Positions 1-20,862 of a stretch of 29,365 nt of DNA are shown one piece after another. Under the pieces are notes generated by a model that was not told where the DNA came from, made no database searches, and saw nothing but the letters and a program-made list of their open reading frames with translations. Position 1 is the stretch's first letter. The number at the start of each line of letters is the position of its first letter. The stretch is from IMG/VR virus record IMGVR_UViG_2693429774_000014, one strand, 5' to 3'. Source of the DNA: a virus (lineage: Duplodnaviria; Heunggongvirae; Uroviricota; Caudoviricetes). Made by a program: the position numbers and the translations under genes.

Positions 1-1026
1 TTACTTGGAATATTTTCTTGGAATATTTTCAGGTAACGGGACATCAAGTGTCGGTGAAACTTTAACCTTCCTGTCATAGATTAGCACTTGCCCCTCGGTT
101 TTGTGACCAGAGAAAAGTTGCTTATCCCGACTGCTTCCTTCATAGTCTGAAATTCCTTTCGCCTTCAGATCATGAAAGGTGAAGTCGGTTAAAATACCTG
201 AAATTTTGCCTGCGCGATTTCTTGCTTCTACCCACATTTCGTTAAAGCCTTTGTACATATATCGGTTGCCGTATTGATTGCTGATTACATAGGCGGATGT
301 TGGTAACTGTTTTGCTTTTTCGATCGCCGCCTGTAATCGTGGACTCCATGCTTTTATCTGTTTTTTTCCTGTTTTCCCTTGCTGGATAAAGATCCCGTCG
401 TTTCCAATCTGCTCCCATTTCAGCGATAACACATCGGAAACCCTCGCTGCACACAGATAGGCAATTTCCATTGCGATAAAAACAGGAAGAGGTGCAACGC
501 TTAATACTGCCTGGTATTCTTTGTCGGTTACATATCGTTCGCGGTTTTTGGCCTTGAATTTACTTACACCTGCACATGGGTTACCCTTCACGTACCCTCG
601 CTCATACCCCCAACTGTAAACGCGGGACATACTGCTTTTTTCATGGTTGGCTTGCGTTTTACTCTGCTCCCCTCTCTTGTCCATGTATCGACGGATGTGT
701 TCTGGTTTTATGGAATCTGCCGGCACCTTACCGAATACGGCAAGCAACTTTTTTTGATGTTGCAGATAATCTTTTTGTGTTCTTGGACTGAGGTCACTGT
801 AATAGGCGCTGGCGAGGAATTTTTCCCACAAGCGACCGAATGTCATTGCACGATCGCGATTATTTACAGTTTCCTCATACTTTTTCCATAAAGCAGCTAA
901 ACCATCCTTGATGGCGGTTAGTGTTACAGATTCTCTGGATGTTGGTTTCCATACATAACTATATTTATTTGGGTATACATTTGGAGGTAATTTTTCGTGT
1001 TCAGGATTTTTCCTTCGTCTTCCCAT
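1..1026 (-). CDS. int: Tyrosine recombinase, lambda-family phage integrase (341 aa); its stop codon is nt 1-3 of the window, so attL lies off-window
   Basis: N-terminus MGRRRKNPEHEKLPPNVY resembles lambda Int MGRRRSHERRDLPPNLY as I recall it; C-terminal region has HDLKAKG and GHKTEGQVLIYDR (His and catalytic Tyr context). Position at prophage end next to an xis-like gene. Confidence 0.9.
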   Translation of the reverse strand: MGRRRKNPEHEKLPPNVYPNKYSYVWKPTSRESVTLTAIKDGLAALWKKYEETVNNRDRAMTFGRLWEKFLASAYYSDLSPRTQKDYLQHQKKLLAVFGKVPADSIKPEHIRRYMDKRGEQSKTQANHEKSSMSRVYSWGYERGYVKGNPCAGVSKFKAKNRERYVTDKEYQAVLSVAPLPVFIAMEIAYLCAARVSDVLSLKWEQIGNDGIFIQQGKTGKKQIKAWSPRLQAAIEKAKQLPTSAYVISNQYGNRYMYKGFNEMWVEARNRAGKISGILTDFTFHDLKAKGISDYEGSSRDKQLFSGHKTEGQVLIYDRKVKVSPTLDVPLPENIPRKYSK

Positions 1027-1229
1027 CAGATCGCACCAAAATTCGGCTCTACCTCGCGTGGTGGTAAAGTTTTATTGCAGGTAAATAGCTCCCGGCTGAC
1101 AATCGGTTTGCCACTACGATTGGTATAGAACGGAAGCCCGTTTTCCATTAACCATTTTCGCTGGTGGCTTGCATATTTGCAGCCCGTTAATATTAGCAAT
1201 TCATCTTCGGTTAAAAATAAGCTGCTCAT
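1026..1229 (-). CDS. Excisionase-like small DNA-binding protein (67 aa), immediately upstream of int
   Basis: 67-aa ORF whose stop overlaps the int start by 1 nt. Small basic protein in the canonical xis position. Sequence is not lambda Xis-like, so the family call is by position and size. Confidence 0.55.
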   Translation of the reverse strand: MSSLFLTEDELLILTGCKYASHQRKWLMENGLPFYTNRSGKPIVSRELFTCNKTLPPREVEPNFGAI

Positions 1230-1287
1230 AGCTATATCTCATAACCGCCGCTAACTATATACGGTTAGCGGCAATTAGGGTTGAACA

Positions 1288-3759
1288 TTAAAAATCAGCC
1301 TGACTCGGGATCAGTTTTTGCCAGATAGCTGAAACGTATTTTGCCTGGTAACGGGCGTCATCAAGTGCATTATGGCGCTCACCTTCGAATGGAATAGCCG
1401 TTCTGGCATCGAAGTCTATGGCTTTCCCCAGCTCAACGATTGTGCGTACATCGCGATCGTTGTAGTAACGCCACGGGCAGGGGATCCCCTGCCGTTCGTA
1501 TGAACGGCGCAAAATCGTGTTGTCGAAGTTGGCTCCATTTCCCCAGACATGAACAAAAAATTCACCGGAGTTTTCGTCGATAAATTCCCGCAATTGTAAC
1601 AGTGCATCATCTAACGGGATTTCATCGGCCATAATGGCAGATTGCGCTTCGCGTGATTGTTTAAGCCACCATTTAATGGTGTCCCGATCAATGACTCCGC
1701 CAGCAGTTTCCAGATCGATAGTCTTACTAAATTCCGGTCCCATATCTCCGGTTTGCGGATCGAAAAATATTGCACCTATTGAGATAATCGGGGCATCGGG
1801 ATTTTTTCCCATGGTTTCAAGGTCGATCATCAGATGAATCCCCGCTCTGCTGGTGGATGTGAGATTATGATGACCGTTCGCCTTAATTAAGGGATCTGAC
1901 GCCTCGCCAGTTTCACTATCGCTGGCATGATGCTGATTGCCGCCAGTGTTCTCCTTGTGCTGATGCGCAGTGCCTTCCATTTCCTCCGGATCATTTTCCT
2001 GAACTTCAGGCTGATTCTCTCCATCGAATATTTCCTGGTATGTTGCGTCACCCATCACCGCACCACAATCAGGGCAGTTGCCGCCACCGCTCTGACCGCA
2101 GGCGGTGCAGATCTTTTCCGGTTCCTGTTGCACTACTGGTTCAGGTTGTTTCGTTTCTGGCTCGTTTTGTAACGCATTTGGGCTGTTTTGTTCCGCTTTT
2201 TGGTAGTTCCGTTCCGATTCATGCTGGTTCTGGTTCACAGAATCGCGAGTCTGGATCCCCTTGACCCATTTCGGATCATTAGGGGCGCTAATCCCCTCAA
2301 CAAATTCACCACGCGATACAGCAAGTAACTTATCGGCGTCAGGCTGGCTGATATTGGCTGCCTGCATAATTTTGTTTACTTCGTCAGCGGTAACTTTTAC
2401 CGGCCCTGGTTGTGCGGTCGTGTCAGATGCACCAGTATTTTGTTGTGAACCTGAGTATGTACCGTTTTTGCGGGCGAAATATTCTTCTTTCGTGATTTCA
2501 GTAGCCCCAGCAGACAGCGCCTTATCCAGACCAGAAAGTTTGTTTGCGCGACCGTATTTTTCGCCATCCTTGTCGGTGAAGAGGAAGTAGAACGGCCCCT
2601 CACGCTCTACAGATGGTTCAGCTTCCGGCGCGGTTTCATTTTTTGGGATATCAGATACCTCAGTTTCCACTGCATCAGTTTGTGTTTCTGATGACTGGAG
2701 AACATCAACAGTGCCCAGGTCTGTTTCTTCATTCTCAAACACGCCCTTTGTCGTCAGGTATTCGCAGATATATTTGTTCAGTGCTACGGGATCTTTGTGA
2801 ATGTCGATCGGACGTTCACGGACAAGGCCAAAAATAGTCTGGCGGTCGTAGCGAAGGGCATCAGGCTGTTTGCGCATTGATGCCGAGATACGCTTCCAGT
2901 CTTCGCGGCCGTTGTCGATAACTTCATTTTTTGCCCAGCGATGGATGCTGCCGTCAATGTTTCCGGCATCCACATCACCAGGCCAGAGAGCGTAGGCCAG
3001 TTCGTCATCCAGTGTTTTCCATGTCTGCTTGTATTCGCGATGAATGGCAGCAATGACCGGGCTGATTTTTCCTGTTGAATTTTCAGTGTACTGTTGATTG
3101 GCTCTGGCGCGGGCGAGATCAACAACAGACGTGTATTTTCCGGTTTCCTTGCGTTCACCTTCGCGACGTTTTTTCCAGATGCGCATCTCTGCCTGAATTT
3201 CGGGCCATTTAGCACCAGGAATACATTTATGCTTAACCCACCCAATGGCGTGCAACTTAAGCTCCGGATACATGGCGTTAACTTCTGGCATTTTCATCAA
3301 CGCTTCAACGATATGTCCGTCGAATGTTGCCATGTCTTCCTGCAACAATTCCTGTGCGCTAATAACCATATCAACGGTGATGTTTTCACATGTGTCGAAC
3401 TTAACCATGACAGCGTTCTGTACTTCAGGGGCCAGCTTGTCAAAAGTGACGTTCATCGGATCGGATTCAGTCTCAACCGGGACAAAAGAAGCAGACTCCT
3501 CATCCCAGCGGTTTTCCTGCATATATTCAGCATCCCATGAATCGAGGGCAGGGCGGGGTATGCCAGGTTTATCCTCGCAGACAATAAATTTATAAGCGCA
3601 GTCCTGAGCAGCCGGATAATGTTCCAGGAATTGCCAGTGAAATTTTGCGCGGGCGCGACATTCATCACCGGCTTCAATGGCAGTGGCTACAGCGACTGCA
3701 CCTTCTTCCTTTATTGCCTGTTCGTCCGGAATGGCGGCGCAAATAAAGACTTTACTCAT
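1288..3759 (-). CDS. Large prophage exonuclease (823 aa): RecE-like (exodeoxyribonuclease VIII-like) N-terminal and middle region, C-terminal DnaQ-like DEDDh 3'-5' exonuclease domain; intact counterpart of K-12 Qin ydfE
   Basis: Segment DADKLLAVSRGEFVEGISAPNDPKWVKGIQTRD matches the Rac RecE segment I recall. C-terminal 180 aa carries DEDDh motifs (MIDLETMG; HNALDDARYQAKY). GAGGT ribosome-binding site 9 nt upstream of ATG. Confidence 0.85.
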   Translation of the reverse strand: MSKVFICAAIPDEQAIKEEGAVAVATAIEAGDECRARAKFHWQFLEHYPAAQDCAYKFIVCEDKPGIPRPALDSWDAEYMQENRWDEESASFVPVETESDPMNVTFDKLAPEVQNAVMVKFDTCENITVDMVISAQELLQEDMATFDGHIVEALMKMPEVNAMYPELKLHAIGWVKHKCIPGAKWPEIQAEMRIWKKRREGERKETGKYTSVVDLARARANQQYTENSTGKISPVIAAIHREYKQTWKTLDDELAYALWPGDVDAGNIDGSIHRWAKNEVIDNGREDWKRISASMRKQPDALRYDRQTIFGLVRERPIDIHKDPVALNKYICEYLTTKGVFENEETDLGTVDVLQSSETQTDAVETEVSDIPKNETAPEAEPSVEREGPFYFLFTDKDGEKYGRANKLSGLDKALSAGATEITKEEYFARKNGTYSGSQQNTGASDTTAQPGPVKVTADEVNKIMQAANISQPDADKLLAVSRGEFVEGISAPNDPKWVKGIQTRDSVNQNQHESERNYQKAEQNSPNALQNEPETKQPEPVVQQEPEKICTACGQSGGGNCPDCGAVMGDATYQEIFDGENQPEVQENDPEEMEGTAHQHKENTGGNQHHASDSETGEASDPLIKANGHHNLTSTSRAGIHLMIDLETMGKNPDAPIISIGAIFFDPQTGDMGPEFSKTIDLETAGGVIDRDTIKWWLKQSREAQSAIMADEIPLDDALLQLREFIDENSGEFFVHVWGNGANFDNTILRRSYERQGIPCPWRYYNDRDVRTIVELGKAIDFDARTAIPFEGERHNALDDARYQAKYVSAIWQKLIPSQADF

Positions 3760-3851
3760 TTTGTTTTACCTCATTACAGATTTAAGGGTGAACAAATCCC
3801 TGCCATTGCTGGCATATAAGAATGAAACCGGATATTTATTACGGAACTGTT

Positions 3852-4043
3852 TTAAAGACCTGCCGGGATTTCGTTATTATCCTGGTGAATAACTTTATCG
3901 ACCGGGTAACAGTTACCGGGAATTTTCTGTTCGGTTGCTGCAGTCACACACTCCTGCATTGTCCTGTGAACACTGACTGCAATATCAACTGGCTCTCCGG
4001 AAACAAGAAAAACTGTCAGAACAAGTGCAAATGCTGTATTCAT
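3852..4043 (-). CDS. ydfD: YdfD-like small membrane lysis protein (63 aa); ORF could extend to an upstream ATG at 4097 (81 aa)
   Basis: MNTAFALVLTVFLVSGEPVD... has an N-terminal hydrophobic segment. ATGA start/stop overlap with dicB. Same size and position as K-12 Qin ydfD. Confidence 0.6.
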   Translation of the reverse strand: MNTAFALVLTVFLVSGEPVDIAVSVHRTMQECVTAATEQKIPGNCYPVDKVIHQDNNEIPAGL

Positions 4044-4228
4044 TGCCAGCATCCTTTTTGTATCGGACGTAAACGGGCCAGCATTGAAAGAATGCATATT
4101 TTATTTAATAACTCCCGTTCGTGTTTTCTCTTGTTAATGGCATCTTCAGTAAATACAGGGTTACTGATAGTGACACCAATTTCAAAACAACCTTCAGACG
4201 TATTAACGTTTGGTAATAACGTTTCCAT
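4040..4228 (-). CDS. dicB: Cell division inhibitor DicB (62 aa)
   Basis: METLLPNVNTSEGCFEIGVTISNPVFTEDAINKRKHERELLNKICILSMLARLRPIQKGCWQ is 62 aa, matching my recollection of K-12 DicB. GAGGA ribosome-binding site upstream. Immediately downstream of the DicF sRNA, as in Qin. Confidence 0.8.
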   Translation of the reverse strand: METLLPNVNTSEGCFEIGVTISNPVFTEDAINKRKHERELLNKICILSMLARLRPIQKGCWQ

Positions 4229-4402
4229 TATCGCGTCCTCAACAATGAATTTTGTGATGCGATGCCTGGTGCCTCCAGGTGACGTTAACCAGTTAACAAT
4301 TAACGCCGGATACAGAGAATCCACCCATAACACTGTTTTTGGTTTTAACTGTTCCGCGTGCGCTCAGCCGCATTCACCACATCACAAAATTCACTTTAAA
4401 AA

Positions 4403-4455
4403 GGGCGGCAGAGCAGTCACGGAGTAAAACTGATACCGCCAAACGTCACCAGAAA
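4403..4455 (-). ncRNA. dicF: DicF small regulatory RNA (53 nt processed form; intrinsic-terminator U-tract extends to about 4398)
   Basis: Minus-strand sequence UUUCUGGUGACGUUUGGCGGUAUCAGUUUUACUCCGUGACUGCUCUGCCGCCC followed by UUUUU matches DicF as I recall it. Lies between ydfC and dicB as in the K-12 dicB operon. Confidence 0.7.
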
Positions 4456-4796
4456 ATTGATAACAGAGGGCGTTGCAGCGGGGTTGTCACTTAAGCGTAT
4501 GGTCAACCTGACAACCCGGTGTCCTCAACGGGGGAAGGAATAACCCCGCCATACTTACCGCCGCGCCATTTCGCGGATTGCCACAACCGGAAGCGCACGG
4601 TCGACGAAAATTTAACGACAGGCTATCTATGAACCAGCTACCTCGCCGTGCGCTTTCGCGTTATGGTCTGACTTTTCAGGGAAATATCCTTTCAGTAAAC
4701 TGTCAATGCCGGATGCTCACCCGTGTCCGGCGCACGCACTCCACCTCACCCGTGGAGAACTCCTTAATTACTAACCTTAGCTTTGTTGATTAGCTA

Positions 4797-5015
4797 CTAA
4801 CGCGGGTATGTAATCATTCTGGCAATGCTTAATGCCGCTGCTTTTTCCAGATTGGTGATATCCTGCTCCAGAGCGGACAGATTTTCAGCCTGCTTAGCTC
4901 TGGCTTCATTGGCCCATTTCAGATCCTGCGCTGCATTAATTTTCTGGTGCATCCACTCATAAAGTTCATCATCGGTATAGTCTGGCGCGATGATGACGGG
5001 TTCTCGTTTCTGCAT
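4797..5015 (-). CDS. ydfC: YdfC-like protein of the dicB operon (72 aa)
   Basis: 72-aa ORF with GAGGAA ribosome-binding site 6 nt upstream. Correct position and size relative to ydfA/ydfB/dicF. Confidence 0.6.
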   Translation of the reverse strand: MQKREPVIIAPDYTDDELYEWMHQKINAAQDLKWANEARAKQAENLSALEQDITNLEKAAALSIARMITYPR

Positions 5016-5041
5016 ACTGATTCCTCGCGGTGCTGTTTCGC

Positions 5042-5173
5042 TTATCAGCCGTTAGATTTTGCCGAACTGGAAAGCGCCTGTTTAAATTCGTTGAAGCTGA
5101 GAGCTTCTTCGCCTTCGGCAAGACCTTCGAAGTATTCTTCGTAAGCCTTTTCCATGATTGTGTCGAAATCCAT
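5042..5173 (-). CDS. ydfB: YdfB-like small acidic protein (43 aa; not in the supplied ORF track because it is under 60 aa)
   Basis: ORF MDFDTIMEKAYEEYFEGLAEGEEALSFNEFKQALSSSAKSNG found by reading the minus strand. AGGTGA ribosome-binding site; start is 2 nt from the ydfA stop. K-12 ydfB is about 42 aa. Confidence 0.45.
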
Positions 5174-5174
5174 A

Positions 5175-5330
5175 TCACTCACCTGAGTTTCTTTCCAGCC
5201 AGCGACGGGCACCATTTTCGGTTTTAAACGTTTTGCTTTTGGTATACGTCATCGCGGTGAACGTACCGTCCTGGTTGGGAAACACGCCGTACACCAGAGA
5301 TTCGTTGTTGCCAAGATCGATAGTATCCAT
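5175..5330 (-). CDS. ydfA: YdfA-like protein (51 aa), first gene of the dicB operon
   Basis: MDTIDLGNNESLVYGVFPNQDGTFTAMTYTKSKTFKTENGARRWLERNSGE. GAGG ribosome-binding site upstream of the internal ATG at 5328-5330. The track's longer 69-aa form lacks a ribosome-binding site. Confidence 0.5.
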   Translation of the reverse strand: MDTIDLGNNESLVYGVFPNQDGTFTAMTYTKSKTFKTENGARRWLERNSGE

Positions 5331-5410
5331 GCTGACCTCATTTCCCCTTAACGCTGGGGTAGCGGAACTGTTTGCTGAGAACACCGTGCGGTGTGTTGAT
5401 GCAAATAAGA

Positions 5411-5424
5411 TTAGCCATGGCTAA
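5411..5424. promoter_or_regulatory. Palindromic operator TTAGCCATGGCTAA in the dicB-operon promoter region; related half-site copy TGTTATGGCTAACA at about 5448-5461
   Basis: Perfect 14-bp palindrome read directly. Shares the half-site TTAG..CTAA with the dicA-dicC intergenic palindrome. Located upstream of ydfA between the divergent dicA and dicB-operon genes. Confidence 0.55.
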
Positions 5425-5496
5425 CATATAGGTCAAGTGATTTTGTATGTTATGGCTAACATGATTGATGTGGTAAAAGATAACTCATTGATGATG

Positions 5497-5904
5497 TTAT
5501 CTTTTATTTGTCCGCTGACGGGCTTTTAGTAATTCTTCAAAGAGTTTATTGAAGTTTTTTACTCGAGCTCGCATTTCGGCGAGCTGGGTATCCTGTTCTG
5601 ATTCTGGCAGTGCATTAAACAGCTCAAGGAGCTCTAGTTCTTTGGGGGATAAGGCAACTGGCTTCTCAACAGGTGGTGTTGGTTGCTTGTCTTCATCGCC
5701 AAATAGAATCCATGTTGGTGAGCATTGCAATACTTTGCTGAGGGCAAAAAGGTTCTTCCCTGTAGGTTCACTATCATCCCGTTCCCATTGTGATACAGAC
5801 ACATGGGAGATTTTCAGGGCTTTAGCAAGAGACCTTTGGGTGTGTTTGAGGTTTTTCCGACGATACCTAATGCGTTCGCCGATAGTTAAATTTTTTGTTT
5901 CCAT
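5497..5904 (-). CDS. dicA: DicA, HTH (XRE-family) repressor of the dicB operon (135 aa)
   Basis: METKNLTIGERIRYRRKNLKHTQRSLAKALKISHVSVSQWERDDSEPTGKNL... has an N-terminal HTH. 135 aa as in K-12 DicA. Divergent from dicC. Confidence 0.9.
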   Translation of the reverse strand: METKNLTIGERIRYRRKNLKHTQRSLAKALKISHVSVSQWERDDSEPTGKNLFALSKVLQCSPTWILFGDEDKQPTPPVEKPVALSPKELELLELFNALPESEQDTQLAEMRARVKNFNKLFEELLKARQRTNKR

Positions 5905-5953
5905 AGTTAGCTAATGCTAAATCGTATTGACTATGTTTTTGTTAACATCTATT

Positions 5954-5973
5954 TTGTTAGTCATGACTAACAA
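5954..5973. promoter_or_regulatory. 20-bp perfect palindrome TTGTTAGTCATGACTAACAA in the dicA-dicC intergenic region (operator)
   Basis: Self-complementary sequence read directly; sits between the divergent dicA and dicC starts. Confidence 0.6.
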
Positions 5974-5987
5974 TAAAGGTGTTTTAA

Positions 5988-6218
5988 ATGCTTAAAACTG
6001 ACGCTCTTTTGTATTTCGGTTCAAAAACAAAACTTGCACAAGCAGCAGGTATTCGTTTGGCTTCGCTTTATAGCTGGAAAGGGGATTTAGTTCCCGAAGG
6101 TCGCGCGATGCGTCTACAGGAGGCATCTGGCGGGGAGCTTCAGTATGATCCCAAAGTTTATGATGAATATCGTAAGACGAAGCGGGCGGGGCGGTTGAAC
6201 AATGAAAATCACTCCTGA
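5988..6218 (+). CDS. dicC: DicC, Cro-like regulator (76 aa)
   Basis: 76-aa ORF divergent from dicA with AAAGGTG ribosome-binding site. Sequence MLKTDALLYFGSKTKLAQAAGIRLASLYSWKGD... matches my recollection of DicC. Confidence 0.85.
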   Translation: MLKTDALLYFGSKTKLAQAAGIRLASLYSWKGDLVPEGRAMRLQEASGGELQYDPKVYDEYRKTKRAGRLNNENHS

Positions 6219-6723
6219 ACAGGCTCGTGAGGCTCTGGATGCCTGGATATGTCGACCAGGAATGACACAGGAGCAGGCGACGATATTAATCACTGAAGCA
6301 TTCTGGGCTTTGAAAGAGCGCCCGAACATCGATGTTCAGCGTGTCACAGATGAAGGTGGCGCGGTTGATCAGCGAGCGCTTGGCGTTAATCGAGTGAAGA
6401 TATTCGAACGCTGGAAGGCTATCGACACCAGGGATAAGCGTGAAAAGTTCACGGCGCTAGTGCCTGCGATTATGGAGGCTATCCGGATTAGTGATTTCAG
6501 GTTGTATCGTGAGATCAGTGATGGAAAAAGTATTACGTACATGATCGCCGGGTTAAATAAAGAATATGGCGATGTGGTGGAATCCGGACTGCTTTTTGCA
6601 GATCCTGCCGTTGTAGATCGTGAAACTGACGAACTTATAGAAAAAGCAATTGCTTTCAAGCTTGCGCATCGACAGCAATACCAACAAAAAGCTGGATGGA
6701 ATTATGAGTCTTCTTTTTGCTGA
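6202..6723 (+). CDS. Hypothetical early-region protein (173 aa), in the cII/YdaT position between the cro-like gene and the replication gene
   Basis: ORF overlaps the dicC stop and the downstream replication gene start (operon coupling). No motif I can assign. Confidence 0.55.
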   Translation: MKITPEQAREALDAWICRPGMTQEQATILITEAFWALKERPNIDVQRVTDEGGAVDQRALGVNRVKIFERWKAIDTRDKREKFTALVPAIMEAIRISDFRLYREISDGKSITYMIAGLNKEYGDVVESGLLFADPAVVDRETDELIEKAIAFKLAHRQQYQQKAGWNYESSFC

Positions 6724-7669
6724 ACGCCCACTGGTTATAAACACGCAGCTGGCAATGAAAATTGGCTTAAACGAAGCCATTGTTTTGCAACAACTGCACT
6801 ACTGGTTGAGAGATACCAACTCCGGCATGGAATGTGATGGTGTTCGCTGGATTTATAACACAACGGAACAATGGCTGGAACAGTTCCCATTCTGGTCAGA
6901 GTCAACGTTAAAGCGCGCGTTTGCAAGTCTGAAAACGCTGGGGCTTTTGCGTTGTGAAAAGCTCAATAAATCAAAGCGCGATATGACCAATTTCTACACG
7001 ATCAACTACGGGAGCGAGCTTTTAGATGGTGGCAAATTGAGCGAATCCATCGGTTTAAAATGCGCCGCTCCATCAGGTCAAAATGACACGATGGAAGAGG
7101 TCAAAATGAAACGCTCCATTGGTTCAAAACGACTCAATGTCATCGGGTCAAAATGGCCTGATGATCTTACAGAGAATACAACAGAGATTACTACAGAGAA
7201 TAAAAAGACTTCTCGTCCGGAAGCTTCGCAACCGGACCCGCAGACGGTTGAACAGGATTTTTTAACCCGACACCCTGACGCGGTTGTGTTCAGTGCGAAA
7301 AAACGCCAGTGGGGCAGCCAGGAAGATTTGGCGTGTGCGCAGTGGATCTGGGGGCGAATCGTGAGTCTTTACGAGCAGGCCGCCAGCGATGATGGCGAGA
7401 TTTCGCGACCGAAAGAACCCAACTGGACCGCATGGGCCAACGACGTGCGCACAATGCGGATGCTGGATGGCAGAACTCACAGACAAATTTGTGAAATGTT
7501 TGGTCGGGTGCAGCGGGATCCATTCTGGGTAAAAAATATCATGAGTCCGTCAAAGCTTCGCGAAAAATGGGATGAACTGGTTATCCGCCTGGGGCGTTCG
7601 TCTGTACAGCGTTGTGTGAATCATATTTCTGAGCCGGATACCGAAATTCCGCCGGGCTTCAGGGGGTAA
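6704..7669 (+). CDS. Phage replication protein with DnaT-like (primosomal protein I) C-terminal domain; start taken at the internal ATG (MSLLFAERP), ORF could begin at 6650
   Basis: C-terminus ...VNHISEPDTEIPPGFRG closely matches the E. coli DnaT C-terminus (...SEPDSQIPPGFRG) as I recall it. The N-terminal half is of a type I associate with phage replication organisers. Confidence 0.8.
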   Translation: MSLLFAERPLVINTQLAMKIGLNEAIVLQQLHYWLRDTNSGMECDGVRWIYNTTEQWLEQFPFWSESTLKRAFASLKTLGLLRCEKLNKSKRDMTNFYTINYGSELLDGGKLSESIGLKCAAPSGQNDTMEEVKMKRSIGSKRLNVIGSKWPDDLTENTTEITTENKKTSRPEASQPDPQTVEQDFLTRHPDAVVFSAKKRQWGSQEDLACAQWIWGRIVSLYEQAASDDGEISRPKEPNWTAWANDVRTMRMLDGRTHRQICEMFGRVQRDPFWVKNIMSPSKLREKWDELVIRLGRSSVQRCVNHISEPDTEIPPGFRG

Positions 7670-7709
7670 GTGTTAATTTCTGGTCATGAGGTAATTTTCA
7701 GGAGGGCTT

Positions 7710-8132
7710 GTGGCAAAAGTTTTTACACAAGAAGAGCGGGAAAAAATTAAAGGGCAGGTTGTTGAACTCGTACGCCGGAGTGGGCGTGAGACGTTACGGC
7801 AACTGGAAGTCAAGACAGGTGCGACAAGATATCTGATGAGCGTTCTCGCAAGAGAGCTGGTTGCCAGCGGCGATGTATACAACTCTGGTTACGGGTTATT
7901 CCCGTCTGAACAGGCGCGTAAGGACTGGCAAAATGCCCGTAAAAAGCTCTCAAGGGCAAAGCTGAAGGAACCATCTGCGGTTGATCCGGACCTTATCTGG
8001 TCATTACCTGACGGAGAAATACGTCGCTACGACAGGCGTCAGAACATAATCTGTCGCGAGTGCCGGAAGAGTGAAGTTATGCAGCGCATACTAGCATTCT
8101 ATCAGGGAAATGCTCGATATTTATTGAAGTGA
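7710..8132 (+). CDS. Hypothetical phage protein (140 aa, GTG start), basic
   Basis: Strong AGGAGGG ribosome-binding site 7 nt upstream of GTG; basic, Cys-containing C-terminal half (RECRKSEVMQR). No confident family assignment. Confidence 0.6.
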   Translation: MAKVFTQEEREKIKGQVVELVRRSGRETLRQLEVKTGATRYLMSVLARELVASGDVYNSGYGLFPSEQARKDWQNARKKLSRAKLKEPSAVDPDLIWSLPDGEIRRYDRRQNIICRECRKSEVMQRILAFYQGNARYLLK

Positions 8133-8384
8133 TGAGATTAAAGTTTATTAGTTCAGATATTGATTGGCTCTTTTGTGGAGTAGGGTAGAGTTAGTGTGTT
8201 TGTCTGCTTGGTGCCAGCAGCGGATATGTTTAACAACAGAAAGCATTCAGCATGGTTAGTGGATTTGCAAAGTGGATTAGGATTTGAGAAACTTTGATGA
8301 AGTTGTAAAGCTTGTTTCTATAAAAATAGAAATTTAACTAATAGTTAAACACACCTCCAGCTTCATTGAAAAGGATTATTAGCT

Positions 8385-16333: not shown

Positions 16334-18184
16334 ATGTCGATTAAACATTATGATGTTGTCAGGGCGGCGTCGCCGTCAGACCTTGCGGAAAAGCTGACAC
16401 ACAAACTGAAAGAGGGCTGGCAGCCATACGGCGGACCGGTTGCCATTACGCCGTACACACTGATGCAGGCGGTGGCTATTGAAGGAGAGCCACAGGTCGG
16501 CCCTTCATCTGAGCCGGATTGGTACTACGTCATCGTACTGGCCGGGCAGTCCAATGCCATGGCTTACGGTGAAGGGCTTCCGCTGCCGGATTCATACGAT
16601 GCTCCGGATCCGCGCATTAAACAGCTGGCGCGCCGCAGTACAGTGACGCCGGGCGGGGCTGCCTGCAGATATAACGATATTATTCCGGCTGACCACTGTC
16701 TGCATGATGTGCAGGATATGAGTACGCTGAATCATCCGAGGGCTGACCTGAGCAAAGGGCAGTACGGCTGTGTCGGCCAGGGTTTACATATTGCCAAAAA
16801 ACTGCTCCCGTATATCCCGAATAACGCGGGGATCCTGCTGGTACCATGCTGTCGTGGTGGTTCGGCATTTACCCAGGGCGCGGAGGGGACATTCAGCGAG
16901 TCCACGGGGGCCAGTCAGGATTCGGCACGCTGGGGGGTGGGCAAGCCGTTATATCAGGATCTGATTTCCCGCACAAAAGCGGCATTGCAGAAAAATCCCA
17001 AAAACGTTCTGCTGGCCGTCTGCTGGATGCAGGGTGAGTTTGACATGAGCGCCGCCACCCACGCACAGCAACCTGCGCTGTTTACAGCCATGCTGACACA
17101 GTTTCGTGCTGACCTCTCCGTGTTTAACGCGCAGTGCCATGGTGGCAGCGCTGCAGATGTGCCGTGGATTTGTGGTGACACGACGTATTACTGGAAAAAT
17201 ACATACGCTACCCAATACGACACCGTGTACGGCGGGTATAAAAACAGGGAGAGTGAGGGCGTTTATTTTGTGCCCTTCATGACAGACGGTAACGGCGTCA
17301 ATACCGCCACTAACGCGCCGGCAGAAGATCCGGATATTCCGGCATCAGGATATTACGGTGCGGCATCGAGAACGAATGGAAACCAGGTATCATCAAACCG
17401 CCCGACACATTTCAGTTCATGGGCGCGCAGGAGCATTATTCCGGATCGTCTGGCAACCGCTATTCTGAACGCAGCCGGGCGCACCTCAGCCTTCATCAGT
17501 GGTAAGGCACCGGAAATCAAACCCTCGCCCGGCGGCAACACGCCATCGGGTCCGTCTGCAGATACGTCCGTTCGCACAATCTCCCTGCTGCCGGCAGCCG
17601 GAGAGGCTGCTGCGCAGGGCTGGAGCATTAAGGATGGCGGAATTCAGTTGTCAGATGGTGTATTTAAGATCACCAAGCAGAGCAATAAAACCTGGTCCCT
17701 GACGCATCCGGTGGATGACGCAATTACCCTGCTGACACAGGGCGGCAGACTGACCTGTAAGTTCCGCCTGTCAGGCGCACTGACCAACAATCAGTTCGGG
17801 CTGGGGATTTATCTGTATACGGATGCTCCCGTTCCTGATGGTGTGGCGATGACGGGTACCGGTAATCCGTTCCTGATGTCGTACTTCACTCAGACCACTG
17901 ACGGCAGAGTGAATCTGATGCATCACAGGAAAGCCGGAAACACGAAGCTGGGGGAGTTCGGCGGTTACGGTAACGACTGGCAGACGCTGGAGCTGGTGTT
18001 CACCGCCGGCAGTGCCACGGTTACTCCGAAACTGAATGGAGTGGCTGGCCCGGCATTCCAGGTTATAAAAGACGGTCTGACACTGGGACTGAATGCGCTG
18101 ACGCTGACGGATGTTACAAAAAATGCAGCGTATGGCGTTGAGATAGAAAGTCTGGTGCTGGAGATAAATGCACCGGCAGCATAA
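16334..18184 (+). CDS. nanS: Prophage NanS-p-like sialate O-acetylesterase (616 aa; SGNH/SASA esterase core with extra N- and C-terminal domains)
   Basis: Block VIVLAGQSNAMAYGEG (GQSN-type esterase motif). Size and position (between the Q/tRNA region and the holin) match the NanS-p genes of Stx-type lambdoid phages. GGGAGA ribosome-binding site. Confidence 0.8.
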   Translation: MSIKHYDVVRAASPSDLAEKLTHKLKEGWQPYGGPVAITPYTLMQAVAIEGEPQVGPSSEPDWYYVIVLAGQSNAMAYGEGLPLPDSYDAPDPRIKQLARRSTVTPGGAACRYNDIIPADHCLHDVQDMSTLNHPRADLSKGQYGCVGQGLHIAKKLLPYIPNNAGILLVPCCRGGSAFTQGAEGTFSESTGASQDSARWGVGKPLYQDLISRTKAALQKNPKNVLLAVCWMQGEFDMSAATHAQQPALFTAMLTQFRADLSVFNAQCHGGSAADVPWICGDTTYYWKNTYATQYDTVYGGYKNRESEGVYFVPFMTDGNGVNTATNAPAEDPDIPASGYYGAASRTNGNQVSSNRPTHFSSWARRSIIPDRLATAILNAAGRTSAFISGKAPEIKPSPGGNTPSGPSADTSVRTISLLPAAGEAAAQGWSIKDGGIQLSDGVFKITKQSNKTWSLTHPVDDAITLLTQGGRLTCKFRLSGALTNNQFGLGIYLYTDAPVPDGVAMTGTGNPFLMSYFTQTTDGRVNLMHHRKAGNTKLGEFGGYGNDWQTLELVFTAGSATVTPKLNGVAGPAFQVIKDGLTLGLNALTLTDVTKNAAYGVEIESLVLEINAPAA

Positions 18185-18185
18185 T

Positions 18186-18470
18186 AAAAAAAGAGCCAGC
18201 GACTGACCTGAAAGAAGACGCTGGCTAAAAGGCCTTATATGTTTGTAGAGACTTATTTTTCACAGACAGCAATGATGCCTGTCAATATATTATCAATATG
18301 CGGATTGTTTCAGTTACAGATGCTTTATTAAGGAAAAAAACAGCCAGCACTGACTTTCGGTGGAGAGGTGCTGGCTCAGAAGGATAGTTGGATTTCACAT
18401 GATACTTATGCCTGGCGGTATATTTTCTGACAGACAGTGACGGGTGTTGTCAAGATATTGTGTCATTTAT
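18186..18470. repeat. Imperfect tandem direct repeat (two units of about 115-135 bp, each with a GCCAGC...GCTGGC inverted repeat) in the nanS-to-holin intergenic region
   Basis: Unit 1 (about 18186-18300) and unit 2 (about 18334-18470) align by eye: AAAAAAAGAGCCAGCGACTGAC...GCTGGCT...CAGACAGCAATGATGCCTGTCAATATATT versus AAAAAAACAGCCAGCACTGACT...GCTGGCT...CAGACAGTGACGGGTGTTGTCAAGATATT. Confidence 0.6.
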
Positions 18471-18551
18471 AACCTGAATCAGGGGAGGCCGGAATGTTAT
18501 CTGGCATTTTTAGCAGAGCCTGAATGCCATAATCACGGCTCCCGGAGTTGG

Positions 18552-18590
18552 CCGTCAGTGGGTGACACTGGCGGTTTTTTTGTTTTTCTT
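18552..18590 (+). terminator. Strong rho-independent terminator about 40 bp upstream of the holin gene
   Basis: 9-bp stem CCGTCAGTG/CACTGGCGG (one G-U pair), loop GGTGA, then TTTTTTTTGTTTTT. Confidence 0.65.
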
Positions 18591-18631
18591 TACTTTCATT
18601 TTCTGTCGGCGGTGACGGAGACATACATCAG

Positions 18632-18838
18632 ATGGAAAAAATCACAACGGGTGTGTCATACACCACGTCAGCGGTGGGGACGGGATACTGGTTACTGCAG
18701 CTGCTGGACAAAGTCTCTCCGTCCCAGTGGGTGGCAATCGGTGTGCTGGGGAGTCTGCTGTTTGGCCTGCTGACGTATCTGACTAACCTTTATTTCAAGA
18801 TTAAAGAAGATAAGCGTAAGGTGGCGCGGGGAGAGTAG
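18632..18838 (+). CDS. S: Phage-21-type holin (class II holin/pinholin family, 68 aa)
   Basis: [68 protein letters not shown] closely resembles S21 as I recall it; two TM segments and a basic C-terminus. Confidence 0.85.
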
Positions 18839-19093
18839 TCGATGAATAAACAATACGAACTGGTTGTAAAATGAATATTTCTAACTGAAAAAACGTTCCA
18901 TGAGGTAAGAAAAGGTCACAGGCAATCAATAACAGGACGTGATGAAAGACCCTTGCATTTGTGCGCTTTCTCTTTAGATAGCAGCAGATACTGAAAATCT
19001 GAGTTGTCGGGGAGTCAGGGATACAGCTGTGCAAGAGTTGGTCATTGTGATTCCATTGAAATCCTGTATGCCATGAAGGGCAGGATTTTATGG

Positions 19094-19408
19094 CTACCTG
19101 AGCTTTGGTGATAGTAAGTTGAAAATTCGCATTTTTTGCTGACATGCGTAACGAGAATCCCATAAGCAGGGAGGACTTAATTCTTCATTAACCCATGCGT
19201 TGATATTATGTTTCAGCCGTTGAAGCATCAGCGGTGTTAATGTTGTGGTAATAATATCCAGCGTTTTATGTGAGATCTTACCGTAAGGGTCTGCAAGAAT
19301 GCTGCTTGTTGCTTCGTTATTATCTGCCATCAGAAGAAGTAACTCTGATTTAACGTTTTCTGTCATTAGTTGTAAAAATCTTCTGCGCAAACTTTCTTTA
19401 CTGTTCAT
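19094..19408 (-). CDS. YdfR-like hypothetical protein (104 aa) encoded antisense within an AT-rich insert between holin and endolysin
   Basis: ORF on the opposite strand in an AT-rich segment (about 18840-19500). K-12 Qin has a roughly 103-aa ydfR between essQ and rrrQ. Ribosome-binding site is weak. Confidence 0.45.
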   Translation of the reverse strand: MNSKESLRRRFLQLMTENVKSELLLLMADNNEATSSILADPYGKISHKTLDIITTTLTPLMLQRLKHNINAWVNEELSPPCLWDSRYACQQKMRIFNLLSPKLR

Positions 19409-19525
19409 TTATATGGCTTCATTTGTTGTAATCTGCTGCGTCTCAAGGGATATGTTTATGAGAGCGACCATGAGTGTTGGATTATATACCTAACATATCA
19501 AGGGATTAGAAATCGATAAATCCCC

Positions 19526-20059
19526 ATGAACGAAAAAATAAAATACGGCCTGTCGGCTGCCGTTCTGGCGCTGATTGGTGCAGGTGCTTCTGCGCCTGAA
19601 ATCCTCGACCAGTTTCTGGATGAAAAGGAAGGTAACCACACCACGGCATACCGTGATGGTGCGGGGATCTGGACCATCTGCCGTGGTGCCATTCTGGTGG
19701 ATGGTAAGCCTGTTATTCCTGGCATGAAGCTGTCAAAGGAAAAATGCGACCGGGTTAATGCCATCGAACGTGACAAGGCGCTGGCATGGGTGGAGAAAAA
19801 CATCCGGGTGCCGCTGACCGAACCCCAGAAAGCGGGGATCGCGTCATTCTGTCCGTACAACATTGGCCCCGGTAAGTGCTTCCCGTCGACGTTTTATAAA
19901 CGAATTAATGCAGGCGATCGAAAAGGTGCCTGTGAGGCGATTCGCTGGTGGATTAAGGACGGTGGCAGAGACTGCCGTATCCGTTCAAATAATTGCTACG
20001 GTCAGGTCTCACGGCGTGACCAGGAGAGCGCGCTGGCGTGCTGGGACATCGACAGATAG
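19526..20059 (+). CDS. R: Endolysin, T4-lysozyme-family (GH24) with N-terminal signal-anchor (SAR-type, as in phage 21 R)
   Basis: N-terminal hydrophobic YGLSAAVLALIGAGASAP, then catalytic-triad spacing E-x8-D-x5-T (LDEKEGNHTTAYRDGAGIWT). Pairs with a pinholin-type holin. Confidence 0.85.
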   Translation: MNEKIKYGLSAAVLALIGAGASAPEILDQFLDEKEGNHTTAYRDGAGIWTICRGAILVDGKPVIPGMKLSKEKCDRVNAIERDKALAWVEKNIRVPLTEPQKAGIASFCPYNIGPGKCFPSTFYKRINAGDRKGACEAIRWWIKDGGRDCRIRSNNCYGQVSRRDQESALACWDIDR

Positions 20060-20279
20060 CAGAATATTTTCCTGAAAAATGACGTTGGCCAACGCGGGTG
20101 GATAACACGAAATCCTGAAAACTGGTAAAACCTAAGTGAATAAAAGTAAAAACCCCGTTTGTTGGCAGCAAGCGGGGTTTTGTGTTTTCTGACCTTGAGT
20201 AAGGCAAGGGAGAAATTATGGGTAGGGAGGTACTTTCCCTGTGAGGAAGTATAAAAGATTCTTTCTGAGGTTGTCCATT

Positions 20280-20393
20280 ATGAAAGGCATTGAAGTGGAG
20301 ACGCCAGCCAGTCTGGATTTAACAAGAGCGGCAGCTTTTGCCATTCGTATTGTGGCCATTGCTGTTCTGGTCTGGGCAATCCGTTGGTGGTGA
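20280..20393 (+). CDS. Possible small hydrophobic protein (37 aa) between endolysin and Rz
   Basis: MKGIEVETPASLDLTRAAAFAIRIVAIAVLVWAIRWW. GAGG about 9 nt upstream of ATG; stop is 1 nt before the Rz ATG. Not in the track (under 60 aa). Confidence 0.3.
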   Translation: MKGIEVETPASLDLTRAAAFAIRIVAIAVLVWAIRWW

Positions 20394-20394
20394 T

Positions 20395-20862
20395 ATGAAC
20401 CGTGTTCTGTGCGTGGTTATCATTGTCCTGCTGGTGGCCTGTGGTGCGCTTAGTCTGGGGCTGAATCATTACCGTGATCACGCCATCATCTACAAAGAGC
20501 AGCGCGATAAAAAAGCCAGTGAGCTGGAGCTGGCGAACGCGACAATTACTGATATGCAGATACGCCAGCGTGATGTCGCTGCACTTGATGCCAGATACTC
20601 GAGGGAATTAGCCGATGCGAGAGCTGAAAATGAAACTCTGCGTGCTGATGTTGCCGCTGGTCGTAAGCGCCTGCGGATCAACGCCACCTGCTCCGGTACC
20701 GTGCGTGAAGCCACCGGCACCTCCGGCGTGGATAATGCAACCGGCCCCCGACTGGCAGACACCGCTGAACGGGATTATTTCATCCTCAGAGAACGGCTGA
20801 TGGCAATGCAGAAGCAACTGGAAGGAGCACAGGAATATATCCGTACCCAGTGTATACCGTGA
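20395..20862 (+). CDS. Rz: Rz-like i-spanin (155 aa from MNRVL; track ORF starts at 20338)
   Basis: N-terminal TM (VLCVVIIVLLVACGALSL) then a charged coiled-coil-like periplasmic domain. Contains an embedded +1-frame lipoprotein ORF (Rz1). Confidence 0.7.
   Translation: MNRVLCVVIIVLLVACGALSLGLNHYRDHAIIYKEQRDKKASELELANATITDMQIRQRDVAALDARYSRELADARAENETLRADVAAGRKRLRINATCSGTVREATGTSGVDNATGPRLADTAERDYFILRERLMAMQKQLEGAQEYIRTQCIP
20630..20800 (+). CDS. Rz1: Rz1-like o-spanin lipoprotein (56 aa) embedded in Rz in the +1 frame
   Basis: MKLCVLMLPLVVSACGSTPPAPVPCVKPPAPPAW...: lipobox-like VSAC and a proline-rich mature region. GAGAG ribosome-binding site. Confidence 0.7.
   Translation: MKLCVLMLPLVVSACGSTPPAPVPCVKPPAPPAWIMQPAPDWQTPLNGIISSSENG

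What the first reader, a model, noticed from the sequence alone, without database searches (positions are those of the whole stretch)
1288..3759. 823-aa exonuclease combining a RecE-like N-terminal/middle region with a DnaQ-like DEDDh 3'-5' exonuclease C-terminus, with no adjacent annealase
Rac RecE, as I understand it, carries a C-terminal 5'-3' nuclease domain and is partnered by RecT. Here the C-terminal 180 aa instead show DEDDh motifs (DLETMG; HNALDDA), and no recT/bet-like gene lies between int and the dicB operon. That suggests a recombination or DNA-processing function different from classical RecET or Red. This appears to be the intact form of the gene that is a truncated pseudogene (ydfE) in K-12 Qin.
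Basis: partly seen in the sequence, partly recalled or inferred. Interest (0 to 1): 0.5.

Follow-up and report, generated by a model that had tools for sequence, protein, structure and literature searches.

The report
Prophage YdfE-type 3'-5' exonuclease, intact
This is the intact form of the E. coli prophage gene ydfE. It carries a DNA-trimming (3'-to-5') exonuclease on a scaffold partly shared with the recombination enzyme RecE. The gene is very common and already annotated, but nobody has tested what it does.

Summary
Window 1288-3759 (minus strand) encodes an 823-aa protein.

- **C-terminus:** residues 642-813 are a DexA/Rv2179c-type DEDDh exonuclease domain (Pfam E 1.5e-66). All five catalytic residues are present, and the best structural match is T4 DexA.
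- **RecE likeness:** only residues ~246-626 resemble RecE. Residues 1-225 are the YdfE_N domain, not RecE's N-terminal domain. RecE's PD-(D/E)XK nuclease domain is absent.
- **ydfE:** K-12 ydfE is the first 256 aa of this protein (98% identical), cut by IS2E.
- **Annealase:** none lies next to the gene, and none was detected elsewhere in the window.

The protein is not new. An identical RefSeq protein exists, 4780 of 5426 complete E. coli genomes carry a match, and Zheng et al. 2025 noted DnaQ-type nuclease genes near int in lambdoid phages.

Three results were derived here:
- The family is modular, with two alternative heads and three alternative tails.
- PD-(D/E)XK tails are followed by RecT, a third tail type by Gp157, and DEDDh tails by no partner gene.
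- The window has 10 Chi sites against 0.8 expected, so it fits the recombinase-less, RecBCD-dependent phage class.

Most likely the protein is a 3'-5' DNA exonuclease made in the lytic phase that works without an annealase. Its biological role is untested.

The parts
1288..3759 (-). Whole gene: 823-aa YdfE-family exonuclease (identical to RefSeq WP_000048392.1, named 'exonuclease')
   Evidence: PHROG 2082 matches the full length
3085..3759 (-). Head module N1, residues 1-225: YdfE_N (PF27430). An alpha/beta subdomain (residues 1-100) is followed by a helical subdomain.
2725..3084 (-). Module N2, residues 226-345: YdfE_C (PF27432), helical. It is shared with RecE (about residues 278-345) and with every architecture of the family.
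1840..2724 (-). Linker, residues 346-640: mostly predicted disordered and rich in E/Q/P/N/T, with small weakly ordered elements
   Evidence: pLDDT is below 50 over most of it; composition; dN/dS 0.29-0.44, the least constrained module in one of the two comparisons
1886..2335 (-). Stretch with 76% nucleotide identity to Rac recE (aa 475-624, matching RecE 455-590). It ends at the junction with the catalytic domain.
2065..2109 (-). Four-cysteine zinc-ribbon motif CxxC-x7-CxxC (C551, C554, C562, C565), conserved in RecE
   Evidence: weak Pfam DZR hit; pLDDT about 65-68
1291..1839 (-). Tail module, residues 641-823: DexA/Rv2179c-type DEDDh 3'-5' exonuclease domain with catalytic residues D646, E648, D746, H796 and D801
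1026..1229 (-). DUF4224 excisionase-like gene, directly downstream of the exonuclease gene
1..1026 (-). Tyrosine integrase. This is the left end of the prophage; in an identical locus it lies next to tRNA-Ser.
3852..4043 (-). ydfD (DUF1482), directly upstream in the same operon
4040..4228 (-). dicB, cell-division inhibitor, same operon
4403..4454 (-). DicF small RNA, same operon
   Evidence: Rfam 76.7 bits
1849..1856 (+). One of 10 Chi sites (GCTGGTGG) in the window. This one lies inside the gene, on the opposite strand. The others are at 1160, 11265, 12727, 12784, 14917, 19944 and 20430 (+) and at 13317 and 13369 (-).
   Evidence: 10 found, 0.80 expected, maximum 3 in 100 shuffles

Best explanation
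The gene encodes the intact YdfE-family protein of lambdoid phages. It has four parts:
- a folded head (YdfE_N plus YdfE_C);
- a linker of about 300 residues, mostly disordered, that carries a four-cysteine zinc ribbon;
- a C-terminal DEDDh exonuclease domain of the T4 DexA family.

Shown here:
- The catalytic domain is intact and the gene is under purifying selection.
- It is the last large gene of the leftward early operon (ydfA/B/C, dicF, dicB, ydfD, exo, xis, int).
- It has no annealase or Gam-like partner gene.
- The head, the YdfE_C module and the linker are shared with RecE-type proteins that carry other tail domains.

Inferred:
- After prophage derepression the protein is made together with DicB.
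- It acts as a metal-dependent 3'-to-5' exonuclease on DNA 3' ends, with the head and linker serving as a tether or targeting platform.
- It works alone, trimming or degrading 3' ends. It is not the resection half of an exonuclease-annealase pair.
- The host phage has no strand-annealing protein and no detected RecBCD inhibitor, and it is rich in Chi sites. It therefore probably relies on host RecBCD and RecA for recombination-dependent growth.
For: Catalytic domain:
- Pfam E 1.5e-66.
- The five catalytic residues align to T4 DexA.
- The sequence hits the solved DexA structure, and DexA is the top fold match.
- DexA is a DNA 3'-5' exonuclease with roles in host-DNA scavenging and in double-strand-break repair during intron homing (PMC12153337).

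Selection and intactness:
- dN/dS is 0.25 and 0.31 against two phage alleles.
- The gene is intact in the sequenced phage genomes mEp460, HannyBb, Tritos, Evi and PhiR42_1.
- 3537 genomes hold a copy covering at least 80% of the gene.

Operon:
- No sigma-70-like promoter lies on the minus strand between ydfD and the gene.
- In K-12 the dicB promoter reads through ydfD and ydfE, and the operon is repressed by DicA (PMC11430063).

Modularity and partner genes:
- Module map of the family.
- PD-(D/E)XK tails are followed by RecT.
- The ZF40-type tail is followed by Sipho_Gp157.
- DEDDh tails have no partner gene.

Phage class:
- 10 Chi sites against 0.8 expected.
- No annealase, Gam-like or Gp157-like hit in six frames.
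Against: - No biochemical or genetic test exists for this protein or for any full-length relative.
- The Pfam family is named for an RNase (Rv2179c), so an RNA substrate is not excluded.
- According to Zheng et al., 3'-5' DNA exonucleases usually inhibit RecA-dependent recombination, so a helper role in a RecBCD-dependent phage is not obvious.
- The one tested E. coli homologue, EcD, was reported as a defence enzyme.
- The head has no recognisable fold relatives, so 'targeting platform' is a guess.
- The partner-gene pattern rests on about 18 loci. The Chi comparison between tail classes is small and the hosts of some contigs are unknown.
Confidence: 0.5

Rival explanations
1. Prophage-encoded defence nuclease of the HREX/EcD type. 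It would degrade the DNA of superinfecting phages, for example T-even phages with 5hmC DNA, and so protect the lysogen.
For: - EcD is an E. coli DexA homologue reported to cut 5hmC DNA only and to protect against T4 (PMC12153337).
- I located the EcD type as a standalone 193-aa gene in a P2-like prophage. It is 38% identical to this C-terminal domain, E 2e-39.
- Genes next to int are a usual place for accessory genes (Zheng et al.).
- DEDDh exonucleases in prophages can protect against RNA phages (PMC13344964).
Against: - The residues the HREX paper ties to its mechanism are not kept. DexA D90 (tetramer contact, lost in EcD) is D718 here. W152 is Y766. D169 aligns to A780, in a poorly aligned region.
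- The gene has no promoter of its own and sits in an operon that DicA represses in lysogens.
- PADLOC gives only a generic DEDDh hit, E 1.2e-5.
- The 640-residue RecE-related head and linker have no place in the EcD model.
Confidence: 0.15
2. A recombination exonuclease after all. Resection in the 3'-5' direction at two homologous ends exposes complementary 5' tails, which anneal spontaneously or with host factors. This would give annealase-independent end joining or concatemer formation.
For: - The gene sits in the leftward early operon, at the place where Rac carries recE-recT.
- It shares the YdfE_C module, linker and zinc ribbon with RecE. Full-length RecE, with its N-terminal region, enhances linear-linear recombination (PMC11611040).
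- DexA contributes to break repair in T4 intron homing.
- From general knowledge, not checked here: E. coli ExoIII-dependent in vivo cloning works through 3'-5' resection.
Against: - No annealase was detected anywhere in the window.
- The gene lies at the int-proximal end of the operon, not at the canonical Rec module position (Zheng et al.).
- The Chi richness suggests that recombination is delegated to RecBCD.
Confidence: 0.15
3. A 3'-5' exoribonuclease like Rv2179c (RNase AS). It would act on RNA 3' ends, for example on host or phage transcripts or on the operon's own DicF-containing RNA.
For: - The Pfam family is named for the Rv2179c exoribonuclease.
- Fold neighbours include RNase T, oligoribonuclease and REXO2.
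- PGAP names some copies "3'-5' exoribonuclease domain-containing protein".
Against: - The closest solved relative by both sequence and fold is the DNase DexA.
- The tested E. coli homologue EcD acts on DNA.
- The scaffold is shared with DNA enzymes of the RecE type.
Confidence: 0.1
4. A decaying mosaic remnant with no present function, carried along in defective prophages.
For: - The gene is often disrupted: truncated by IS2E in K-12, interrupted by an IS4-family element (IS421) in one genome, and frameshifted in PPompW phages.
- The DNA mosaic junction with recE shows frequent recombination.
Against: - dN/dS is 0.25-0.31, and 0.08-0.12 in the head.
- All five catalytic residues are kept across relatives that are 38-60% identical.
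- The gene is intact in phages deposited as complete genomes.
- Full-length copies occur in 3537 genomes.
Confidence: 0.05

Closest known systems
E. coli K-12 YdfE (b1577, Qin prophage pseudogene); Pfam YdfE_N (PF27430) and YdfE_C (PF27432)
   Same: Residues 1-256 are 98% identical. The operon context is the same: dicB, ydfD, ydfE, then int.
   Different: K-12 holds only the head, cut by IS2E. The window copy is complete, with linker and exonuclease domain.
Phage T4 DexA (exonuclease A; PDB 8KEL/8KEN)
   Same: Same DEDDh family. The five catalytic residues align, and DexA is the best hit by sequence and by fold.
   Different: - DexA is a standalone 227-aa protein of a virulent phage, about 27% identical.
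- It has extra loops.
- Its proposed 5hmC-recognition residues W152 and D169 are Y766 and A780 here.
EcD / 'HREX' defence exonuclease (Kang et al. 2025, PMC12153337)
   Same: An E. coli prophage-borne DexA homologue, 38% identical to residues 642-816.
   Different: - EcD is a standalone 193-aa gene in a P2-like prophage.
- It lacks the aspartate equivalent to DexA D90, which this protein keeps (D718).
- It has no YdfE/RecE scaffold.
Rac RecE (exonuclease VIII) with RecT
   Same: - Shared YdfE_C-like module, linker and zinc ribbon (residues 262-625 against RecE 278-591). The last 150 aa of that stretch are 76% identical at the DNA level.
- Both genes lie in the leftward early operon between the kil/dicB-type genes and xis-int.
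   Different: - No PF06630 head and no PF12684 PD-(D/E)XK nuclease domain.
- Opposite expected polarity.
- No RecT next door.
- The NCBIfam equivalog score is 273 against a cut-off of 1269.
DnaQ-type nuclease genes of lambdoid phages and the 'no Rec module, high Chi' class (Zheng, Casjens, Davidson, Amundsen, Smith 2025, PMC12315714)
   Same: [quoted passage not shown]
- A phage without a strand-annealing protein or a RecBCD inhibitor, and with many Chi sites.
- Apparently a single O-like replication gene, with no recognisable helicase loader among the ORFs scanned, as in phage LLS.
   Different: - That paper, in the text I read, does not describe the fusion to a YdfE/RecE scaffold and assigns no function.
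- Its supplementary tables were not available, so I could not see how mEp460-type phages were scored.
M. tuberculosis Rv2179c (RNase AS), name-giver of PF16473
   Same: Same Pfam family.
   Different: It is a standalone bacterial exoribonuclease. It was not among the phmmer PDB hits at E<=0.01.

Membership tests
RecE / exodeoxyribonuclease VIII (NCBIfam NF007259, equivalog) | Whole-protein score above the curated cut-off | tested here: not met
   273.3 bits against a cut-off of 1269. Only model positions 271-603 of 877 are matched.
RecE / exodeoxyribonuclease VIII | C-terminal PD-(D/E)XK 5'-3' nuclease domain (PF12684) | tested here: not met
   No hit in this protein. K-12 RecE hits PF12684 at residues 615-850. 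BLASTP finds no alignment to RecE residues 600-866.
RecE / exodeoxyribonuclease VIII | N-terminal Exonuc_VIII domain (PF06630) | tested here: not met
   No hit. The head is YdfE_N instead.
RecE / exodeoxyribonuclease VIII | Adjacent RecT-type annealase gene | tested here: not met
   The next genes downstream are the excisionase-like gene and int. No RecT-like hit in six frames.
DEDDh (DnaQ-like) 3'-5' exonucleases, DexA/Rv2179c subfamily (PF16473) | Domain match above Pfam's gathering score | tested here: met
   223.9 bits against 27, E 1.5e-66, profile positions 2-177 of 177.
DEDDh (DnaQ-like) 3'-5' exonucleases, DexA/Rv2179c subfamily | Catalytic D, E, D, D and H residues present | tested here: met
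   D646, E648, D746, H796 and D801 align to DexA D7, E9, D119, H186 and D191, and are invariant in the alignment of four sequences.
DEDDh (DnaQ-like) 3'-5' exonucleases, DexA/Rv2179c subfamily | RNase H-like DnaQ fold | tested here: met
   The AlphaFold domain has pLDDT 71-91. The top 50 Foldseek PDB hits are all DEDDh enzymes; the best is 8KEL, probability 1.0.
DEDDh (DnaQ-like) 3'-5' exonucleases, DexA/Rv2179c subfamily | Metal-dependent 3'-5' exonuclease activity, and the substrate (DNA or RNA) | not testable with these tools
   Needs purified protein.
HREX (EcD-type 5hmC-specific defence exonuclease) | Loss of the DexA D90 tetramer contact (alanine in EcD) | tested here: not met
   The aligned residue is D718.
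HREX (EcD-type 5hmC-specific defence exonuclease) | 5hmC-recognition residues equivalent to DexA W152 and D169 | tested here: not met
   They are Y766 and A780 in alignment A1. The D169 region is poorly aligned, so that second residue is uncertain.
HREX (EcD-type 5hmC-specific defence exonuclease) | Protection of the cell against T4-like phages; selectivity for modified DNA | not testable with these tools
   Needs plating assays and nuclease assays.
YdfE family (Pfam YdfE_N + YdfE_C) | Both domains present at the N-terminus | tested here: met
   Precomputed PF27430 and PF27432 on homologues up to 100% identical over the 345-aa query (names). 98% identity to K-12 ydfE. The local Pfam copy lacks these two models.
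Lambdoid 'no Rec module, high Chi' class (Zheng et al. 2025) | No strand-annealing protein and no RecBCD inhibitor encoded | tested here: met
   None among the ORFs scanned with Pfam and PHROGs, and none in the six-frame search. Small ORFs were not all scanned, and the window ends within the head genes.
Lambdoid 'no Rec module, high Chi' class (Zheng et al. 2025) | Chi sites far above expectation, with an orientation bias | tested here: met
   10 sites against 0.80 expected; 0 of 100 shuffles reach 10; 8 of 10 lie on the + strand.

The most novel reading that the evidence does not exclude
The YdfE/RecE head and linker may be a general DNA-end platform onto which lambdoid phages plug interchangeable nuclease tails. 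Each tail type would come with its own partner gene, or with none.

On this reading the DEDDh version is a phage-made helper for the host RecBCD-Chi pathway. It would trim 3' single-stranded tails so that phage DNA ends become blunt enough for RecBCD to load. Chi-rich phages that lack a recombinase could then form the concatemers they need for packaging.
Probability: 0.12. Interest if true: 0.6.

Novelty: already known. Interest (0 to 1): 0.3.

Why it matters
The gene is one of the commonest prophage genes in E. coli. It is found in 88% of complete genomes, with a median of two places per genome that has any match, yet it has no tested function.

About a fifth of lambdoid phages carry no recombinase. 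Recent work suggests they rely on host RecBCD and Chi sites. If this exonuclease takes part in that strategy, or if it guards lysogens against other phages, that would explain why it is so widespread.

The pattern of two heads, three tails and matching partner genes gives a concrete way to ask what the poorly understood N-terminal two-thirds of RecE does. Recombineering laboratories already exploit that region without understanding it.

Tried and rejected
- **Word-indexed homologue search with residues 1-345:** returned almost only near-identical E. coli fragments, so it was useless for diversity. The exhaustive representative search was used instead.
- **Literature searches:** 'Rv2179c + prophage' and 'ydfE + exonuclease + Qin' found nothing; 'Rv2179c-like / PF16473 / DUF5051' found one unrelated phage genome paper. 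No functional study of the full-length protein turned up.
- **PADLOC:** only a generic DEDDh hit, so no known defence system.
- **Third tail type (ZF40-type):** PDB sequence search and Pfam gave nothing. It remains unidentified.
- **afdb50 fold library:** not available.
- **First submission of the second structure job:** It was rerun without them, which left a shallow alignment and low confidence in the linker.
- **Iyer, Koonin and Aravind 2002,** on nucleases associated with annealing proteins: could not be fetched.
- **Supplementary tables of Zheng et al.:** not held.
- **EcD as a fragment of this protein:** rejected. Its cloning primers match a standalone P2-like prophage gene.
Full report
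**1. What is there**

The ORF at 1288..3759 lies on the minus strand and encodes 823 aa. It is identical to RefSeq WP_000048392.1, which PGAP names 'exonuclease' or '3'-5' exonuclease'. PHROG 2082 ('exonuclease') matches it end to end.

A megablast of the gene finds matches in 4780 of 5426 complete E. coli genomes. The median is two places per genome that has any match. In 3537 genomes one place covers at least 80% of the gene.

The locus is the left end of a lambdoid prophage that sits next to a tRNA-Ser gene in an identical genome. The gene order, all leftward, is int, a DUF4224 excisionase-like gene, this gene, ydfD, dicB, DicF, ydfC, ydfB and a DUF1391 gene. Then come dicA and, rightward, dicC, a YdaT-like gene and an O-like replication gene.

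**2. Domain anatomy**

*C-terminal domain.*
- Residues 642-813 match Pfam PF16473 (Rv2179c-like 3'-5' exoribonuclease domain) over the whole profile, E 1.5e-66.
- The only solved structures found by sequence are 8KEL and 8KEN, which are T4 DexA.
- In an alignment with DexA and two standalone phage homologues, D646, E648, D746, H796 and D801 line up with DexA D7, E9, D119, H186 and D191.
- An AlphaFold model of residues 346-823 gives the domain pLDDT 71-91.
- Foldseek against the PDB puts DexA first (E 7e-9, probability 1.0). A Cas2-fused DnaQ domain, RNase T, oligoribonuclease/REXO2 and Cap18 follow.
- The refutation test 'the C-terminus is not a DEDDh fold' therefore fails.

*Relation to RecE.*
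- Likeness to RecE is confined to the middle. The NCBIfam exonuclease VIII model matches only residues 246-626 (model positions 271-603 of 877), at 273 bits against a cut-off of 1269.
- BLASTP aligns residues 262-625 to RecE 278-591 at 38% identity, and nothing else.
- At the DNA level only aa 475-624 match Rac recE (76% identity). The match stops at the border of the catalytic domains. That is the mark of a mosaic junction.
- K-12 RecE has PF06630 at residues 1-178 and the PD-(D/E)XK domain PF12684 at 615-850. This protein has neither.

*Head and linker.*
- Residues 1-345 carry two recent Pfam families, YdfE_N (PF27430) and YdfE_C (PF27432). They are recorded on homologues up to 100% identical over that stretch.
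- A model of residues 1-345, built from 28 diverse sequences, is confident (pLDDT 91.6). It shows an alpha/beta unit (1-100), a helical unit (105-228), a floppy connector and a second helical unit (247-338).
- Residues 346-640 are mostly predicted disordered. They contain a CxxC-x7-CxxC zinc ribbon (C551-C565) that RecE also has.

**3. The ydfE claim**

K-12 ydfE (b1577) translates to a sequence 98% identical to residues 1-256. It then runs into IS2E. The claim is correct.

**4. The annealase claim**

- Between int and dicB there are only the excisionase-like gene, this gene and ydfD.
- Pfam and PHROG scans of the larger early-region ORFs found replication, RusA, DUF968, Q-like, SMEK and methyltransferase proteins, but no RecT, Bet, Erf, Sak or Gam family.
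- A six-frame phmmer search with four RecT-like, three Gp157 and one Gam-like query found nothing even at E<=10. A control recovered Rac RecT. Single-sequence searches have limited reach.

**5. A modular family**

An exhaustive search with residues 1-345 found only 168 cluster representatives among 1.84 billion proteins. I mapped modules on them with phmmer. This shows:
- two alternative heads: YdfE_N or RecE's PF06630;
- a shared YdfE_C module and a variable linker;
- three alternative tails: DEDDh, RecE-type PD-(D/E)XK, or a module of about 300 aa typified by Pectobacterium phage ZF40 gp07. This third tail has no Pfam or PDB match.

All six head-tail combinations occur. The downstream gene varies with the tail:

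| Tail type | Gene that follows | Loci seen |
|---|---|---|
| PD-(D/E)XK | RecT-like gene | Rac, L011, L014, L023 |
| ZF40-type | Sipho_Gp157 ('Mu Gam-like') gene | ZF40, BUCT708, L015, L024/L025 |
| DEDDh | excisionase/integrase directly, no partner | window, PhiR42_1, mEp460, PPompW, L012, L013, L019, L020/L021, L022 |

Standalone 190-aa versions of the DEDDh domain (60% and 53% identical) sit at the same spot, just upstream of xis-int, in E. coli phage vB_EcoM-720R4 and Serratia phage OS31. The domain is common in phages: tblastn finds it in 1635 of 50,697 records.

**6. Selection and expression**

- Against the alleles of PhiR42_1 and mEp460, dN/dS is 0.25 and 0.31 overall. It is 0.08 and 0.12 in YdfE_N, and 0.29 and 0.44 in the linker. 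The substitution counts are small.
- No sigma-70-like promoter lies on the coding strand between ydfD and the gene.
- In K-12 the dicB promoter is reported to read through ydfD and ydfE, and DicA represses it (PMC11430063).
- The gene is therefore probably silent in a stable lysogen and made after derepression. This is inferred, not shown.

**7. What the literature says**

- *Kang et al. [quoted passage not shown] They report an E. coli homologue, EcD, that cuts only 5hmC DNA and protects against T4 ('HREX').
- *Where EcD comes from.* Using their cloning primers I located the EcD type. It is a standalone 193-aa gene in a P2-like prophage next to nadA, and the clone starts at an internal Met5. 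It is 38% identical to the C-terminal domain here.
- *HREX residues.* The residues that paper links to its mechanism differ in this protein. The D90 equivalent is kept (D718). W152 is Y766. D169 aligns to A780.
- *Zheng et al. 2025 (PMC12315714).* They report that lambdoid recombination modules can include DnaQ-like 3'-5' nucleases. They also note that sporadic DnaQ-type nuclease genes lie very near int, outside the module, with unknown roles. 22% of their lambdoid panel has no recombination module. Those phages are Chi-rich, and the growth of one (LLS) is aided by RecBCD.

**8. A prediction tested**

If this prophage belongs to that class it should be rich in Chi sites. It is. There are 10 GCTGGTGG sites in 29.4 kb against 0.80 expected, and the maximum in 100 shuffles was 3. 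Eight of the ten are on the + strand.

Across the loci in hand, those with DEDDh tails have 2.9 Chi per 10 kb, and 24 of 27 sites lie on the strand opposite the gene. The figure is 1.8 for PD-(D/E)XK plus RecT loci and 0.7 for ZF40-type loci. The sample is small and some hosts are unknown, so this is only a trend.

**9. Verdict**

The inference that this is not a RecET/Red-type system is supported. Whether it serves recombination, end processing, defence or RNA turnover cannot be settled without experiments.

I favour a DNA 3'-5' exonuclease made in the lytic phase that works alone, in a phage that leaves strand exchange to the host (confidence 0.5). Catalytic competence itself I hold at about 0.85.

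The protein family is already annotated and the general phenomenon has been noted in print, so novelty is low. The pattern of heads, tails and partner genes, and the link to Chi-rich phages, are the parts worth following up.

Noticed in passing
window 1160-20437 (ten sites; see parts): Chi sites (GCTGGTGG) are about 12 times more frequent than expected: 10 against 0.8. Eight of the ten are on the + strand. This fits the 'no Rec module, high Chi' lambdoid class of Zheng et al. 2025.
   Followed up: partly
L009 6111-7139 (ZF40 gp07 C-terminus); L008, L015, L024: A third tail module of about 300 aa can replace the nuclease domain on the same YdfE/RecE scaffold. It has no Pfam or PDB match. It was followed by a Sipho_Gp157 ('Mu Gam-like') gene in all five loci seen. 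It may correspond to the 'RecE-2' proteins that Zheng et al. describe as lacking a nuclease domain.
   Followed up: partly
L018 4989-5570 (E. coli S19-651, P2-like prophage next to nadA): The published defence nuclease EcD appears to be this standalone 193-aa gene type. The cloning primer starts at an internal Met, four codons after the annotated start, only two residues before the catalytic Asp.
   Followed up: partly
window 8385-10972: Three genes sit between the replication genes and the hok/sok locus and look like an inserted accessory island: a SMEK-domain protein (8385-9284, +), a SAM-dependent methyltransferase (9599-10258, -) and a 235-aa ORF with no family hit (10265-10972, -). In strain SLK172 the SMEK gene is split.
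   Followed up: no
window 6202-8132: The replication region seems to hold only an O-like initiator (6650-7669), flanked by a YdaT-like gene and a DUF977 gene. No recognisable helicase loader was found. Zheng et al. describe the same oddity for phage LLS.
   Followed up: no
window 11534-11708, 15004-15250, 16024-16196: Rfam finds a sok antitoxin RNA (a hok/sok locus), three tRNA genes in a row downstream of the Q-like gene, and the sRNA STnc100.
   Followed up: no
window 3822-4427 (+): A 201-aa ORF runs antisense to ydfD and dicB. It has no family hit and is probably not a gene.
   Followed up: partly
L022 3242-5695: In one metagenome contig the RecE_N-headed DEDDh protein is split into two adjacent genes of 230 aa and 564 aa. 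This may be a frameshift or a natural split.
   Followed up: no
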